A stretch of DNA of 64,000 nucleotides from contig JBEKKN010000008.1 in the NCBI GenBank assembly GCA_050010675.1, forward strand, positions 1,757-65,756, written 5' to 3'. Source of the DNA: Verrucomicrobiota bacterium. GTDB taxonomy: Bacteria; Verrucomicrobiota; Verrucomicrobiia; Limisphaerales; UBA11358. This document shows positions 60,324 to 62,445 of this stretch, in pieces. How positions within the stretch are numbered: the stretch's first letter is position 1; each line of letters starts with the position of its first letter. A program made the position numbers and the translations under genes. Under the pieces are notes generated by a model. The model had not been told where the DNA came from. It saw only the letters and a program-made list of their open reading frames with translations, and made no database searches.

Positions 60324-60383
60324 GCCTGACGGCAGGGACTCCGCGACGTCCGCTTAACCGAAAGTTACATCCAATCAAATCGC

Positions 60384-60412
60384 TGGACAAAATTCAGTGG
60401 TGGGCGTATTCA
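60384..60412 (+). promoter_or_regulatory. candidate promoter TGGACA-N17-TATTCA, 31 nt upstream of ATG 60444
   Basis: Read directly. Confidence 0.3.
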
Positions 60413-60443
60413 GCCAACCAATCCGAGAACATGGGCCTTCAGA

Positions 60444-61568
60444 ATGCCATCTTTCAAGCCAACAAAATTGTGGGAAGCGCCGCCGCACACTTTGGCCAAA
60501 TTGGAAATCGTCGGACGTTACCTGTACTTGTGGTTCACAATTGTAGGAAGCAATCCCAAGAATCATCGTTTGGTATATATTGATGGCTTTGCCGGTCCGG
60601 GACGGTACACGAACACCGAAACGAGCTCTCCTCTGGTCGCGCTTCAGGCCGCGAAAGACGCATTGGAAATATTTCCAGAGAAACTTCGTAAAACGGAATT
60701 TTGTTTCCTGTTTGTCGAAAAAAAGCCGGAATTTGCCAATAGTTTAAAAGAAGCCATCTCGGCAATTTCCTGGCCTTCACAATTCAAATGGGCCGTCGAA
60801 AATTGTTCATTCGAAGAAAAGGTTGGTGGCATGTTGGAGGATTTCCAGCACGAGGGAAAACAACTGGCACCAACATTCGCTTTTATTGATCCGTTTGGTG
60901 CAACCGGACTTCCGTTCAAAGTCATTGCTAAAATCCTCCAGCACTCCACTTGTGAAGTTTTGCTGAACTTGGATTCCGATGGAATTGGCAGGTTGGTCAC
61001 CGCTCAAACAGCTGAAAAGAACCAGGCACATCTTGATGTATTGTTTGGCAACTCAAGCTGGCGCACGGAATTGAATCCCCACCTGCCGATGCCGCAACTT
61101 TCGGCCCAAATTCTGGCTCTTTACAAAAAACGGCTACGCTCCACCGCGCCATATGTATACGCGTTTGCTATGAATTCTCGCGAAGGTCAGTTGAATTACC
61201 ATCTTGTATTTGCCAGCCAGTATTATTTGGGGTTGGAGAAAATGAAGGAAGCCATGAAAGCGGTTGACCAAACTGGAACGTGTTCCTTTTCCGACGACAC
61301 GGTCGGACAGGAACTGCTGGTGTTTGATTTTAACGCGCCGGCGGTTTGGGCGGAGAAAATGCAACAGACACTCGGCGGAATATGGAGACCATATTCCGAT
61401 TTCCGAGACTTTGCCTTGAATGAAACACCATTCACCAACCCAAAAGCGATGTTGCGGCATTTGGACGACAAGCGTTTGGTAGAAATTGAAGCCGAGGCGA
61501 ACAGGCGAAAAGGGTCTTTTCCGGAAGAAAAAATCGGGAGAATTATCATCCAGAAAACTCTTTTGTGA
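60444..61568 (+). CDS. three-Cys-motif partner protein (TcmP)-like; MTase-fold motifs; function unknown
   Basis: 374 aa and AT-richer than its flanks. N-terminal LWEAPPHTLAKLEIVGRYL..W, YIDGFAGPGRY (aa 45-55) and FAFIDPFG (aa 145-152). The family call is from memory of TcmP proteins that pair with DUF5131. Confidence 0.6.
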   Translation: MPSFKPTKLWEAPPHTLAKLEIVGRYLYLWFTIVGSNPKNHRLVYIDGFAGPGRYTNTETSSPLVALQAAKDALEIFPEKLRKTEFCFLFVEKKPEFANSLKEAISAISWPSQFKWAVENCSFEEKVGGMLEDFQHEGKQLAPTFAFIDPFGATGLPFKVIAKILQHSTCEVLLNLDSDGIGRLVTAQTAEKNQAHLDVLFGNSSWRTELNPHLPMPQLSAQILALYKKRLRSTAPYVYAFAMNSREGQLNYHLVFASQYYLGLEKMKEAMKAVDQTGTCSFSDDTVGQELLVFDFNAPAVWAEKMQQTLGGIWRPYSDFRDFALNETPFTNPKAMLRHLDDKRLVEIEAEANRRKGSFPEEKIGRIIIQKTLL

Positions 61569-61625
61569 AGCATGGACCGCATTTGTCCTACCTTTTGTGC
61601 AAAACTGAACCTATGATTTGAATCT

Positions 61626-62420
61626 GTGAGCGCCAATTCAAAAATCGAGTGGACAGATGCAACATGGAACCCGGTTCGCGGCTGCACCAAAGTCAGCCCT
61701 GGTTGCCTCCATTGCTACGCAGAGACGTTTGCCGAGCGTTTTCGCGGCGTGCCCGGCCATCCGTTTGAATTTGGCTTCGATTTGCGCCTCGTGCCCGAAA
61801 AACTAGGCGACCCGCTGCGCTGGTCGACGTCCCGCATGATTTTCGTCAATTCCATGAGCGACCTCTTCCACGAAAATGTGCCGGACGAATACATCGTCAA
61901 AGTGGCACGCGTGATGAGGGCCGCCAACTGGCATACCTACCAGATTCTCACCAAACGCGCTGGTCGGATGCAGAAATTATTAAAAGGCAAACTCCGTTTC
62001 GCAGCGGAGCAATCGCACATCTGGTGGGGCGTGAGCGTGGAAAACCGCCGGCACGGATTGCCGCGGGTTGATCTGCTCCGCGACTCGCCAGCACAGGTTC
62101 GATTCCTGTCCATCGAACCCCTGCTGGAACATCTCGGCCCGTTCAATTTGGCAGGGATGAATTGGGTCATCGTTGGCGGCGAAAGTGGACCGGGCGCGCG
62201 GCCGATGGATGCTCGCTGGGTGCGCGACATCCGGGCACAATGTTTCCGCGCAAAAGTTGCTTTCTTTTTTAAACAATGGGGTGGTGTCCGCAAATCAGAG
62301 GCCGGCCGGGAATTGGACGGACAAACCTATGACGAATTTCCCGCACGACAGCAGGTTCCGGTTCCCAATTTGGAATTCAGGCGGAATGCGTTGGAACAGT
62401 TGGAAGCGGAATCGGTTTGA
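61626..62420 (+). CDS. phage Gp37/Gp68-family (DUF5131) three-Cys protein
   Basis: GTG start. [35 protein letters not shown]...[13 protein letters not shown]...VSVEN......R...L........FLSIEPLL....L....I.[10 protein letters not shown].ARPM...W.R.IR.QC....V.FFFKQWGG. Confidence 0.8.
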   Translation: [264 protein letters not shown]

Positions 62421-62445
62421 TACGGATCGGGACAGTAGCCGGCGT

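What the first reader, a model, noticed from the sequence alone, without database searches (positions are those of the whole stretch)
60330..62440. AT-richer two-gene cassette: TcmP-like (MTase-motif) protein plus Gp37/Gp68 (DUF5131) three-Cys protein, a candidate uncharacterised nucleic-acid-modification or defence module
Two co-directional ORFs (60444..61568 and 61626..62420, 57-nt gap) sit in a patch that is visibly AT-richer than its neighbours (AAA/ATT/TTT-rich codons; not computed). The patch is wedged between the DUF748 gene and the convergent, frameshifted pilD, so the pair looks horizontally inserted. ORF2 opens with [27 protein letters not shown], the signature I recognise for phage Gp37/Gp68 (DUF5131) proteins. 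It has C20-x6-C27-x2-C30, a radical-SAM-like but non-canonical three-Cys motif. ORF1 resembles the 'three-Cys-motif partner protein' family that characteristically travels with DUF5131. Read directly, ORF1 carries a class-I SAM-MTase motif-I-like YIDGFAGPG (aa 45-53) and a motif-IV-like FIDPFG (aa 147-152; compare DPPY/DPPF of amino-methyltransferases). To my knowledge neither partner has an experimentally assigned function. Inference: an Fe-S/radical-type enzyme plus an MTase-fold partner on mobile DNA is a candidate DNA/RNA base-modification, anti-phage or anti-restriction system.
Basis: partly seen in the sequence, partly recalled or inferred. Interest (0 to 1): 0.8.

Follow-up and report, generated by a model that had tools for sequence, protein, structure and literature searches.

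The report
Mobile TcmP plus DUF5131 gene cassette
A 2.1-kb, horizontally inserted two-gene cassette encodes a methyltransferase-fold, DNA-binding-type protein (TcmP) and a radical-SAM-like three-cysteine protein (DUF5131); this pair is widespread, mobile and already catalogued as an untested phage-defence candidate (PADLOC PDC-M30/M41), and its chemistry is still unknown.

Summary
ORF1 (60444-61568) is a full-length TcmP (TIGR04474, 195 bits against a cutoff of 53). ORF2 (61626-62420) is a full-length DUF5131 (PF07505, E 3e-97) with an invariant C20-x6-C27-x2-C30. Relatives with pilD 90-91% identical have DUF748 and pilD abutting about 13 bp apart, so window ~60332-62434 is a ~2.1-kb insertion. 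It carries no recombinase. TcmP is strongly AT-rich for this window (GC 0.47 against 0.59, z -3.7); DUF5131 is low only in GC3.

In 80 species-representative genomes, 66 TcmP genes sit next to a DUF5131. Twelve of the other 13 evaluable loci sit next to a canonical CX3CX2C, SplB-like radical SAM gene. The TcmP model (pLDDT 92) is a class I SAM-methyltransferase fold with conserved motifs I, II and IV (DPFG) plus a C-terminal winged helix. The DUF5131 model is a partial barrel whose best TM match is spore photoproduct lyase.

About 31% of loci neighbour restriction-modification or other defence genes. In a temperate Gordonia phage the pair lies in the lysogeny module.

The best reading is a SAM/radical-SAM module that targets nucleic acid in phage-host conflict. 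It is a new member of a known but uncharacterised kind, of moderate interest.

The parts
60332..62434 (.). Inserted cassette of about 2,103 bp: leader, tcmP, spacer, DUF5131 gene and a 14-bp tail. It is absent from the orthologous DUF748/pilD junction in close relatives.
   Evidence: Empty sites in L092 and L094 (pilD 90-91% identical) and in at least 13 more distant relatives. Junction alignment. The same cassette at 83.6% DNA identity in a different genomic context (L010) spans window 60401-62418.
60320..60331 (.). Left copy (ATAAGCCTGACG) of an imperfect 9-12 bp direct repeat that flanks the insertion. It includes the DUF748 stop codon TAA at 60321-60323.
   Evidence: The single-copy empty-site sequence GTAGCCGACG aligns to both junctions. 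This could be a target-site duplication or junction microhomology; the repeat is short and imperfect.
62435..62444 (.). Right copy (GTAGCCGGCG) of the flanking imperfect direct repeat. It lies immediately before the pilD stop codon at 62446-62448 on the minus strand.
60332..60443 (+). 112-nt leader upstream of tcmP. It presumably holds the cassette's own promoter, which was not demonstrated. The last ~43 nt are conserved with the L010 cassette.
   Evidence: The sigma-70 scan found no promoter-like site here. No Rfam match.
60444..61568 (+). tcmP: three-Cys-motif partner protein, 374 aa, with a class I SAM-methyltransferase fold and a C-terminal winged helix.
   Evidence: TIGR04474 E 1.9e-57, 195 bits against cutoff 53. 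PADLOC PDC-M30A 7e-40 and PDC-M41A 2e-19. AF2 pLDDT 91.9, pTM 0.91. Foldseek hits are class I methyltransferases.
60576..60602 (+). TcmP motif I (Y45-IDGFAGPG-53), the SAM-binding glycine loop after strand 1.
   Evidence: D47, G48, F49, G51, P52 and G53 are invariant or at least 94% conserved in 67 diverse homologs. The motif follows strand E42-47 of the model.
60717..60719 (+). TcmP E92, the acidic residue at the end of strand 2 (motif II, the position that contacts the SAM ribose).
   Evidence: E in 59 and D in 8 of 67 homologs. It follows strand E85-91.
60882..60899 (+). TcmP motif IV (F147-IDPFG-152), an amino-methyltransferase-type (D/N)PP(Y/F)-like catalytic loop after strand 4.
   Evidence: D149 and P150 are invariant; F151 and G152 are present in 66 of 67. 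The motif follows strand E144-148.
61308..61508 (+). TcmP C-terminal winged helix-turn-helix (about aa 289-355), a putative nucleic-acid-binding domain.
   Evidence: PF22560 GMT-like wHTH is hit by 37 of 67 family members, best E 3.9e-9, always at about residues 288-355. The window protein itself scores below threshold, but its model has three helices and a beta wing there.
61569..61625 (+). 57-nt intergenic spacer with GC 0.40.
   Evidence: In other genomes the spacing is typically 0-130 nt, and the genes sometimes overlap.
61626..62420 (+). DUF5131 (phage Gp37/Gp68 family) gene, 264 aa, a radical-SAM-like partial barrel.
   Evidence: PF07505 E 2.7e-97. PDC-M30B 3.6e-101. phrog_2045 4e-95. 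AF2 pLDDT 85.9. The best TM match in the PDB is spore photoproduct lyase 4fhg, TM 0.48, E 0.015.
61683..61715 (+). Three-Cys loop C20-x6-C27-x2-C30, followed by Y31. This is the presumed [4Fe-4S] ligand triad.
   Evidence: C20, C27, C30 and Y31 are invariant in alignments A3 and A4. The loop lies between a strand and helix H31-38 and has low pLDDT, as expected for a site modelled without its metal. hhalign aligns it with the CX3CX2C of SplB-like radical SAM partners, with a 3-residue insertion.

Best explanation
The locus is a self-contained, horizontally acquired two-gene module of the TcmP/DUF5131 type (PADLOC candidate PDC-M30/M41). My proposal is that the two proteins work together on nucleic acid, most likely DNA.

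TcmP would be the SAM-binding and target-recognition subunit. It has a class I methyltransferase fold with an amino-methyltransferase-type DPFG loop and a C-terminal winged helix. DUF5131 would be the Fe-S radical-SAM-type catalytic subunit. Its three Cys would bind a [4Fe-4S] cluster that cleaves SAM to a 5'-deoxyadenosyl radical, related to the spore-photoproduct-lyase/SplB clade that performs radical chemistry on DNA bases.

The biological role would lie in phage-host or mobile-element conflict, through modification or radical processing of a nucleobase. That could mark or protect the carrier's DNA, or inactivate invading DNA.

Shown here: the family memberships, the folds, motif conservation, the obligate pairing and partner swap, mobility, and the association with defence neighbourhoods and a prophage lysogeny module.

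Inferred: Fe-S binding, SAM cleavage, physical complex formation, DNA as the substrate, and the direction of the phenotype (defence or counter-defence).
For: (1) Pairing. DUF5131 is adjacent to TcmP in 66 of 80 species-representative loci, usually downstream on the same strand with a 0-130 nt gap. It is also adjacent in every closer homolog context examined.

(2) Partner swap. In 12 of the 13 evaluable loci without DUF5131, the adjacent gene is a canonical CX3CX2C radical SAM protein. It hits PF04055 above its gathering score and gives weak PA0069/Rv2578c/rSAM_mob_pairB hits. These loci include TcmPs 55-68% identical to the window's. TcmP therefore needs a radical-SAM-type partner, and DUF5131 fills that slot.

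(3) hhalign of DUF5131 against those partners gives E 1.2e-4, probability 56%, and superposes the Cys triads. RadicalSAM.org places DUF5131 in Megacluster-5-2, beside spore photoproduct lyase in 5-3 (PMC9477430). The best TM match of the model is SPL.

(4) TcmP has a confident methyltransferase-fold model with motifs I, II and IV conserved in 67 of 67 or nearly so, plus a wHTH.

(5) Conflict context. PADLOC HMMs PDC-M30A/B and M41A/B hit both proteins. Recurrent neighbours in 25 of 80 loci are Type IIG, Type III and Type ISP restriction-modification genes, HKD-Snf2/DrmD-like, NucC-like and HmaC/DUF499 genes. In L021 the pair lies between Type III mod and res on the same strand. On plasmids it sits among HD, exonuclease, ThiF, JAB and PIN genes. 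In temperate Gordonia phage ThankyouJordi it lies between the integrase and the immunity repressor, with tcmP directly downstream of the repressor.

(6) Mobility. Empty sites in close relatives; the same cassette in unrelated contexts; tcmP has lower GC than the host flanks in 58 of 60 loci.

(7) TcmP evolves faster than DUF5131 in 57 of 60 pairs, as expected for a specificity subunit.

(8) SplB-like COG1533 radical SAM genes are SOS/LexA-regulated in several species, which links the clade to DNA (PMC8565304, PMC3381160).
Against: No member of either family has a published biochemical or phenotypic result. PDC systems are explicitly untested candidates.

DUF5131 does not hit the Pfam Radical_SAM model. 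Its Cys spacing is non-canonical. No Foldseek hit reached E < 1e-3, and several top hits are ordinary TIM-barrel aldolases. The hhalign probability is only 56%.

TcmP hits no Pfam methyltransferase model, and its structural matches are weak (TM 0.3-0.5), so it may bind SAM without transferring methyl.

In this window the cassette sits alone between housekeeping genes, with no nuclease or other effector. About 69% of surveyed loci have no recurrent defence neighbour.

DUF5131 occurs in 181 phage records, but TcmP in only 9, so DUF5131 can work without TcmP. A phage-beneficial role such as counter-defence or repair is equally possible.
Confidence: 0.5

Rival explanations
1. DNA-repair module. 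DUF5131, like its SplB/SPL relatives, would directly reverse a DNA lesion by radical chemistry, and TcmP would be the lesion- or DNA-recognition subunit. Mobile elements and phages would carry it to protect their own DNA from UV, desiccation or alkylation damage, or from damage inflicted by host defences.
For: The best TM structural match is spore photoproduct lyase. The alternative TcmP partners are SplB/COG1533-like, and that clade is SOS-regulated in several species. DUF5131 is common in phages without TcmP. The hosts are soil and peat organisms.
Against: A repair enzyme has no obvious need for an amino-methyltransferase-type catalytic loop (DPFG) that is invariant across the family. Recurrent embedding in or beside restriction-modification systems and a position in the prophage immunity region fit conflict better than repair. 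The gene is absent from close relatives of the host, so it is not core repair.
Confidence: 0.17
2. Small-molecule or nucleotide chemistry. As with viperin-type defence, the radical SAM partner would convert a free nucleotide and TcmP would methylate or otherwise tailor it, producing a chain terminator or signalling molecule rather than acting on polymeric DNA or RNA.
For: There is precedent for radical SAM antiviral enzymes acting on free nucleotides (prokaryotic viperins; general knowledge). The top Foldseek hits of TcmP are small-molecule methyltransferase-fold enzymes: CmoA, histamine N-methyltransferase, catechol O-methyltransferase and spermidine synthase. The cassette has only two genes and no nuclease.
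Against: The conserved C-terminal winged helix in TcmP and the DPFG loop typical of enzymes that act on nucleic-acid exocyclic amines point to a polymer substrate. The homologous radical SAM clade (SPL/SplB) acts on DNA. The Foldseek hits are weak and generic (TM 0.3-0.5).
Confidence: 0.12
3. Housekeeping RNA modification. The pair would install a complex tRNA or rRNA modification (compare TYW1 with TYW2/3, or RlmN/Cfr), and the link to mobile DNA would be incidental.
For: Combinations of a methyltransferase fold with a radical SAM enzyme are classic in tRNA and rRNA modification (general knowledge). Trm1 (2dul) and an RsmD-like protein (1ws6) are among the Foldseek hits. Some phage records annotate the DUF5131 gene as 'RNA methyltransferase'.
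Against: The distribution is patchy, and the pair is absent from close relatives of the host at the same locus. It is carried on plasmids and prophages and sits next to restriction-modification genes. Its GC is consistently lower than the host's. None of this is typical of core translation-machinery modifiers.
Confidence: 0.1
4. Selfish or decaying passenger. The cassette would be a hitch-hiking remnant with no current function in this host.
For: There is no recombinase and no partner effector, and the cassette sits alone between housekeeping genes. The adjacent pilD is disrupted in this assembly.
Against: Both ORFs are full length, and every family-invariant residue examined is intact. The identical cassette is found in at least 6 metagenome contigs of the same species. 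DUF5131 is 80-93% identical across hundreds of clusters, which implies strong purifying selection.
Confidence: 0.05

Closest known systems
PADLOC phage-defence candidates PDC-M30 and PDC-M41 (TcmP-like A protein plus DUF5131 B protein); Payne et al., bioRxiv 10.1101/2024.01.29.577857
   Same: Both window proteins hit the A and B HMMs of these candidates: M30A 7e-40, M30B 3.6e-101, M41A 2e-19, M41B 8e-101. The two-gene architecture matches. In other genomes the pair is embedded in or beside restriction-modification systems, which is how PDC systems were nominated.
   Different: In this window the pair is solitary, between DUF748 and pilD, and not embedded in any defence system. The PDC category is a prediction only, described as '145 untested phage defence candidates', so membership gives no mechanism.
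[quoted passage not shown]
   Same: Full-length matches well above the curated cutoffs. The defining adjacency is present.
   Different: Nothing differs in architecture. The family names describe co-occurrence only, and no function is assigned.
Spore photoproduct lyase and SplB-like COG1533 radical SAM proteins (PA0069 and Rv2578c families)
   Same: Both have an N-terminal three-Cys loop followed by Tyr (C-x-x-C-Y), a partial beta/alpha barrel and the best structural TM score (0.48). They share a RadicalSAM.org megacluster. SplB-like proteins replace DUF5131 next to TcmP.
   Different: The spacing is CX6CX2C, not CX3CX2C. There is no PF04055 hit, and NCBIfam scores are far below the cutoffs. 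DUF5131 is shorter (264 aa against about 340) and lacks the SPL C-terminal region. SPL works alone, without a methyltransferase-fold partner.
Amino-methyltransferases of the class I fold with a (D/N)PP(Y/F)-type motif IV (N6-adenine and N4-cytosine DNA methyltransferases; m2G RNA methyltransferases such as Trm1 and RsmD)
   Same: The linear order is motif I, then an acidic residue after strand 2, then motif IV after strand 4. There is a D-x-F-x-G-x-G type motif I and an invariant D-P-F-G. Trm1 (2dul) and the RsmD-like 1ws6 appear among the Foldseek hits. That Trm1 itself uses a DPFG variant is my recollection and was not tested here.
   Different: No Pfam methyltransferase model is hit. TM scores are only 0.3-0.5. 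TcmP also has a conserved N-terminal helix (H15, K19, Y26), a helical insert at 178-232 and a C-terminal wHTH that these enzymes lack.
Radical SAM mobile pair proteins A/B (TIGR04471/TIGR04470)
   Same: These are mobile two-gene modules involving radical-SAM-type proteins. DUF5131 hits pair protein A weakly, and the alternative partners hit pair protein B weakly.
   Different: The scores (54 and 39-65 bits) are far below the cutoffs (355 and 410). The partner here is a methyltransferase-fold protein, not a second radical SAM enzyme.

Membership tests
TIGR04474 TcmP (three-Cys-motif partner protein) | Whole-protein HMM score above the curated cutoff | tested here: met
   195.2 bits against a cutoff of 53, E 1.9e-57, covering profile positions 1-262 of 263.
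TIGR04474 TcmP (three-Cys-motif partner protein) | Encoded next to a three-Cys-motif protein | tested here: met
   DUF5131 lies 57 nt downstream on the same strand. The same holds in 66 of 80 genome loci, and 12 of the other 13 evaluable loci have a CX3CX2C radical SAM neighbour.
PF07505 DUF5131 (phage Gp37/Gp68) | Pfam HMM above the gathering score, full length | tested here: met
   325.5 bits against 28.9, covering profile positions 1-243 of 243. Also phrog_2045 at 4e-95.
PF07505 DUF5131 (phage Gp37/Gp68) | Conserved N-terminal three-Cys motif | tested here: met
   C20, C27 and C30 are invariant in A3 (25 sequences) and A4 (48 sequences).
Radical SAM superfamily (for DUF5131) | Canonical CX3CX2C motif and a match to PF04055 | tested here: not met
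   The spacing is CX6CX2C. There is no PF04055 hit at E <= 0.01. A subfamily in L074, L077 and L080 has CX2CX9C.
Radical SAM superfamily (for DUF5131) | Partial (beta/alpha)6 TIM-barrel core with the Cys loop after strand 1 | tested here: inconclusive
   The model has alternating strands and helices, and the Cys loop lies between a strand and helix 31-38. Foldseek finds TIM-barrel proteins, and SPL, LipA and AprD4 only at E 0.015-0.075, with a best TM of 0.48.
Radical SAM superfamily (for DUF5131) | Detectable homology to bona fide members | tested here: inconclusive
   hhalign against SplB-like partners gives probability 55.6% and E 1.2e-4, with the Cys triads aligned. There is a weak TIGR04471 hit at 54 bits. 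SFLD and RadicalSAM.org list DUF5131 as a subgroup.
Radical SAM superfamily (for DUF5131) | [4Fe-4S] cluster and reductive SAM cleavage | not testable with these tools
   This needs anaerobic purification, UV-vis and EPR spectroscopy, and detection of 5'-deoxyadenosine.
Class I SAM-dependent methyltransferase (for TcmP) | Rossmann-like seven-strand fold | tested here: met
   The AF2 model has pLDDT 91.9. Foldseek gives 71 PDB hits at E <= 1e-3, and the listed hits are overwhelmingly class I SAM-dependent methyltransferase-fold enzymes (methyltransferases and aminopropyltransferases) at probability 1.00, though TM is only 0.3-0.5.
Class I SAM-dependent methyltransferase (for TcmP) | SAM-binding motif I glycine loop and an acidic residue after strand 2 | tested here: met
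   The DGFAGPG residues are 94-100% conserved. Position 92 is E or D in 67 of 67 sequences.
Class I SAM-dependent methyltransferase (for TcmP) | Match to a curated methyltransferase sequence model | tested here: not met
   The window protein has no Pfam hit. Only 1 of 67 relatives gives a marginal Cons_hypoth95 hit at 0.039. A profile search against PDB sequences finds nothing.
Class I SAM-dependent methyltransferase (for TcmP) | Methyl (or other group) transfer from SAM | not testable with these tools
   This needs a biochemical assay.
PADLOC PDC-M30 / PDC-M41 candidate defence system | Both component HMMs hit adjacent genes | tested here: met
   M30A 7.1e-40 with M30B 3.6e-101; M41A 2.2e-19 with M41B 8.4e-101.
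PADLOC PDC-M30 / PDC-M41 candidate defence system | Anti-phage activity | not testable with these tools
   The source paper calls the 145 PDC systems untested. No later paper reports a test.
Restriction-modification system | A cognate nuclease or restriction component alongside the methyltransferase-like gene | tested here: not met
   The 2.1-kb insert holds only the two genes. The flanks are DUF748 and pilD.
Radical SAM mobile pair A/B (TIGR04471/TIGR04470) | Score above the equivalog cutoff | tested here: not met
   54.4 bits against a cutoff of 355.

The most novel reading that the evidence does not exclude
The TcmP/DUF5131 pair, with its TcmP/SplB-like sister pairs, is a previously uncharacterised class of two-enzyme radical-SAM system that acts on DNA. 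A winged-helix, amino-methyltransferase-like subunit would select the site or base. A non-canonical CX6CX2C Fe-S enzyme would carry out radical chemistry on it. The result would be either a new kind of DNA base modification or direct radical inactivation of invading DNA. The system would move as a minimal 2-kb cassette, without a recombinase, between bacteria, archaea, plasmids and prophages.
Probability: 0.35. Interest if true: 0.8.

Novelty: new member of a known kind. Interest (0 to 1): 0.45.

Why it matters
Neither protein family has an assigned activity, although both are very large. TcmP has about 3,455 clusters at 50% identity. The DUF5131 search saturated at 8,000 hits. Both occur in bacteria, archaea, plasmids and phages.

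If the pair is a radical-SAM-based DNA-modifying or antiviral system, it would add new chemistry to the known immune and epigenetic repertoire. It would also give a function to a 'DUF' annotated in hundreds of actinobacteriophage genomes.

This analysis makes the question easier to test. TcmP needs a radical-SAM-type partner, shown by the swap with a canonical CX3CX2C enzyme. The Cys triad, D149/P150, E92 and the wHTH are the residues and domain to mutate. Culturable sources are identified: Gordonia phage ThankyouJordi gp41/gp42, S. meliloti pSymA and M. chubuense pMYCCH.02.

The window instance itself is an ordinary member of the family from an uncultured Verrucomicrobiota organism. Its main value is as a clean example of cassette insertion with an empty-site comparison.

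Tried and rejected
- Sequence and profile searches of both proteins against PDB chain sequences gave only noise, so no solved relative is detectable by sequence.
- Foldseek of TcmP against viral structures returned only generic methyltransferases.
- Longer family members were scanned for informative domain fusions. None was found beyond the wHTH and a GP88 overlap.
- The repeat finder over the cassette returned only short families at chance level and did not report the junction repeat. That repeat emerged only from the empty-site alignment, and it remains short and imperfect.
- Rfam and tRNA scans of the region found nothing, so there is no riboswitch and no tRNA integration site. 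The sigma-70 and terminator scan gave nothing convincing in the leader.
I rebuilt the alignment from a profile search.
- Literature searches for DUF5131, TcmP, TIGR04474, PF07505, Gp37Gp68, COG4422, PDC-M30/M41 and GMT-wHTH found annotations only and no functional study.
- Restriction-modification system: rejected, because there is no nuclease.
- Toxin-antitoxin module: rejected, because nothing suggests it.
- Membership of the TIGR04471/04470 'radical SAM mobile pair': rejected, because scores are far below the cutoffs.
- Recent transfer as the sole explanation for the low GC: rejected. tcmP is AT-richer than its host in 58 of 60 genomes, so this is a property of the family.

Full report
**1. 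Observation**

The two ORFs are present exactly as described. ORF1 is 60444..61568 (+, 374 aa, ATG start). ORF2 is 61626..62420 (+, 264 aa, GTG start). A 57-nt spacer separates them. The motifs are as quoted: ORF1 has Y45-IDGFAGPG-53 and F147-IDPFG-152, and ORF2 has C20-x6-C27-x2-C30.

Composition:
- ORF1 has GC 0.470 and GC3 0.507, against a window mean of 0.590. That is z = -3.7, and only 0.5% of 1,125-bp windows are as low.
- ORF2 has GC 0.566, which is not unusual (z = -0.7). Its GC3 of 0.634 is below the 0.73-0.78 of the neighbouring genes.
- The spacer has GC 0.40.

So the AT-rich patch is real but is mainly ORF1.

**2. Family identity**

- ORF2 is a full-length PF07505 DUF5131 / phage Gp37/Gp68 protein (E 2.7e-97) and hits phrog_2045.
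- Both proteins hit the A and B models of PADLOC candidate systems PDC-M30 and PDC-M41. [quoted passage not shown]
- Full-text searches found no functional study of either family.
- The only classification is that SFLD and RadicalSAM.org treat DUF5131 as a radical SAM subgroup. It is placed in Megacluster-5-2, next to spore photoproduct lyase in 5-3 (PMC9477430).

**3. The cassette is a recent insertion**

Identical copies of the locus, arranged DUF748 | tcmP | DUF5131 | pilD | aroE, occur on at least six metagenome contigs of the same species.

I searched metagenomes with the intact PilD protein and obtained 80 related loci. Only the closest one (L091, PilD 97% identical) carries DUF5131. In L092 and L094 (PilD 90-91%, DUF748 80-86%), and in at least 13 more distant relatives, the convergent DUF748 and pilD genes abut with about 13-20 bp between their stop codons and no cassette.

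Aligning the empty site to the window places the insertion at about 60332..62434, or 2,103 bp. The single-copy empty-site sequence GTAGCCGACG aligns to both junctions: ATAAGCCTGACG at 60320-60331 and GTAGCCGGCG at 62435-62444. This could be a 9-12 bp target duplication or junction microhomology. It is short and imperfect, and I do not lean on it.

There is no recombinase, tRNA or Rfam element in or beside the insert. The same cassette, at 83.6% DNA identity over window 60401-62418, lies in an unrelated context in another Verrucomicrobiae genome (L010). Homologs 72-80% identical sit in yet other housekeeping contexts, always in the order tcmP then DUF5131.

Low GC is a property of the family. 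tcmP is AT-richer than its host flanks in 58 of 60 loci (mean -7.9 points), and DUF5131 in 47 of 60 (mean -3.7 points).

The host is an uncultured member of the Verrucomicrobiota, judged from the names attached to the closest homologs.

**4. The pairing is obligate and the partner can be swapped**

A scan of one genome per species found at least 587 TcmP loci across bacteria and archaea. Of the 80 best, 66 have DUF5131 adjacent. It is mostly downstream on the same strand with a 0-130 nt gap, and sometimes upstream or convergent.

Of the 14 loci without DUF5131, one is truncated at a contig end. In 12 of the other 13, the gene adjacent to TcmP is a canonical CX3CX2C radical SAM protein. These 12 include L013-L017 and L019, whose TcmP is 55-68% identical to the window's. 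The two that I scanned (L013 and L019) hit PF04055 above its gathering score. They also hit the SplB-like PA0069/Rv2578c families and 'radical SAM mobile pair B', but below those families' cutoffs.

Profile-profile comparison of DUF5131 with these partners gives E 1.2e-4 (probability 56%). It aligns C20...C27-x2-C30-Y with C-x3-C-x2-C-Y, with a 3-residue insertion in DUF5131.

This is the strongest evidence here that DUF5131 occupies the functional slot of a radical SAM enzyme. It also shows that TcmP requires such a partner.

**5. Structures**

The TcmP model is confident (pLDDT 91.9, pTM 0.91). Foldseek returns 71 PDB hits at E <= 1e-3, and those listed are overwhelmingly class I SAM-methyltransferase-fold enzymes: CmoA, HNMT, COMT, SpeE, RsmD-like 1ws6 and Trm1 2dul. 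None is close (TM 0.3-0.5).

The linear order is canonical:
- strand 1, then motif I (DGFAGPG, 94-100% conserved);
- strand 2, then an acidic residue (E/D92 in 67 of 67);
- strand 4, then D149-P150-F151-G152 (invariant or 66 of 67).

This DPFG loop is the (D/N)PP(Y/F)-type loop of methyltransferases that act on exocyclic amino groups of nucleobases. That family knowledge, and the similarity to the Trm1 DPFG, come from my recollection.

Residues ~289-355 form a winged helix. It matches PF22560 (GMT-like wHTH) in 37 of 67 relatives and in the Gordonia phage homolog (3.3e-9). An N-terminal helix with invariant H15, K19 and Y26 has no assigned role.

The DUF5131 model (pLDDT 85.9, pTM 0.85) is an alternating beta/alpha partial barrel. 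The Cys loop has low confidence and lies between a strand and helix 31-38. No PDB hit reaches E < 1e-3. The hits are TIM-barrel enzymes, and the best TM and longest alignment is spore photoproduct lyase 4fhg (TM 0.48, 300 columns, E 0.015). LipA and AprD4 are also present. This is compatible with a radical SAM core but does not prove one.

Neither family has a solved relative detectable by sequence.

**6. Context elsewhere**

Clustering the two ORFs on each side of the pair in the 80 loci gave recurrent neighbour families:
- Type IIG RM enzymes (10 loci);
- Type III methyltransferase (5 loci);
- Type III restriction subunit (4 loci);
- Type ISP enzymes (3 loci);
- HKD-Snf2/DrmD-like helicases (3 loci);
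- DUF6602/NucC-like nucleases (2 loci);
- DUF499/HmaC ATPases (3 loci).

Together these cover 25 of 80 loci. In L021 the pair lies between Type III mod and res on one strand.

TcmP occurs on 60 PLSDB plasmids. On S. meliloti pSymA the pair sits beside HD, AAA-ATPase, 3'-5' exonuclease, radical SAM and ThiF genes. On M. chubuense pMYCCH.02 it sits beside JAB/MPN, ImmA/IrrE and PIN genes.

DUF5131 occurs in 181 of 50,697 phage records, mostly Mycobacterium, Gordonia and Burkholderia phages. TcmP occurs in only 9. In temperate Gordonia phage ThankyouJordi the convergent pair (gp41/gp42) lies between the integrase (gp38) and the immunity repressor (gp43). tcmP is 3 nt downstream of the repressor on the same strand, so it lies in the lysogeny-maintenance module.

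TcmP diverges faster than DUF5131 in 57 of 60 pairs. This is the pattern expected if TcmP carries target specificity.

SplB-like COG1533 genes are LexA/SOS-regulated in several lineages (PMC8565304; Rv2578c in PMC3381160). That ties this radical SAM clade to DNA.

**7. Mechanism**

The best-supported reading (confidence about 0.5) is a two-subunit SAM/radical-SAM module that acts on nucleic acid in the context of phage, plasmid and host conflict.
- TcmP would bind SAM and select the target through the wHTH and the DPFG loop.
- DUF5131 would bind a [4Fe-4S] cluster through C20, C27 and C30 and generate a 5'-deoxyadenosyl radical for chemistry on the same nucleotide.

Shown: memberships, folds, motif conservation, obligate pairing and partner swap, mobility, and context. 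Inferred: Fe-S binding, SAM cleavage, complex formation, DNA rather than RNA or a small molecule as substrate, and whether the outcome is defence, self-marking or counter-defence.

Rival readings:
- an SPL-like DNA-repair module (0.17);
- viperin-like chemistry on free nucleotides (0.12);
- housekeeping RNA modification (0.10);
- an inert passenger (0.05).

Evidence for and against each rival, and the result that would refute it, are in the Rival explanations section.

**8. Comparison and novelty**

By every sequence criterion the locus is a member of TIGR04474 plus PF07505, which equals PADLOC PDC-M30/M41.
- It is not an RM system, because it has no nuclease.
- It is not a member of the TIGR04471/04470 'radical SAM mobile pair', because its scores are far below the cutoffs.
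- It does not meet the canonical radical SAM sequence definition: the spacing is CX6CX2C and there is no PF04055 hit. It probably works like a radical SAM enzyme all the same.

It is therefore a new member of a known but functionally uncharacterised kind.

Interest is moderate. A specialist would not be surprised to see the pair, but the family is large and unexplained. Three results sharpen the hypotheses to test: the partner swap, the empty-site proof of cassette mobility without a recombinase, and the position in a prophage immunity region.

Noticed in passing
window 62446-63478 (minus strand), deletion junction between 62661 and 62662: The pilD (prepilin peptidase) gene is 100% identical to the intact 371-aa gene on contig L001 of the same strain, apart from an 83-bp deletion that shifts the frame. 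This is either a real strain variant or an assembly artefact.
   Followed up: partly
L013-L017 and L019 (downstream of TcmP); L051, L054, L064, L070, L073 and L083 (adjacent to TcmP): TcmP genes without DUF5131 are instead paired with canonical CX3CX2C radical SAM proteins of the SplB/COG1533-like type. Some of these TcmPs are 55-68% identical to the window's. This is a partner swap within one TcmP lineage.
   Followed up: yes
L074, L077 and L080 (DUF5131-like gene next to TcmP): A divergent DUF5131 subfamily, 30-32% identical, has the Cys spacing C-x2-C-x9-C-Y instead of C-x6-C-x2-C-Y. The position of the cluster ligands is therefore plastic in this family.
   Followed up: no
L090 (Gordonia phage ThankyouJordi NC_070789.1, record 33401-35268): The convergent DUF5131 (gp41) and TcmP (gp42, annotated 'methyltransferase') genes lie between the integrase gp38 and the immunity repressor gp43. 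tcmP is 3 nt downstream of the repressor gene, so it is probably expressed from the prophage.
   Followed up: partly
L021 1262-9266: The pair is embedded on the same strand between a Type III RM methyltransferase (1262-4309) and a Type III restriction subunit (6474-9266). This is the 'embedding' signature used to nominate PDC systems.
   Followed up: partly
L063 9270-14018: This is the one TcmP locus with neither DUF5131 nor an immediately adjacent SplB-like gene. It has a 1,582-aa DEAD/DEAH helicase with an MrfA Zn-binding (DUF1998) domain downstream. In S. meliloti a TcmP gene (SMa2243) lies near the Hna defence helicase and is co-regulated with it.
   Followed up: no
window ~30300-31140: This is the second strongly AT-rich patch of the window (GC about 0.45-0.48). 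It holds a 209-aa ORF (30509..31138, +) with hydrophobic N- and C-terminal segments, just after a 572-aa gene. It may be another small insertion.
   Followed up: no
window ~51066-51440 and 52395-52781: Small genes for a PDDEXK_3 protein and a 23S_rRNA_IVP (four-helix-bundle) protein are interleaved with PAPS-reductase-family genes. GC dips locally to 0.53. Genes of this kind are often mobile passengers.
   Followed up: no
L002 (contig Ga0645787_0550): A second assembly of the same locus has many genes split into fragments, including DUF748, pilD, aroE and DUF5131 truncated to 202 aa. This looks like a noisy assembly full of frameshifts, and it warns that single-contig frameshifts in these data may be artefacts.
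   Followed up: no
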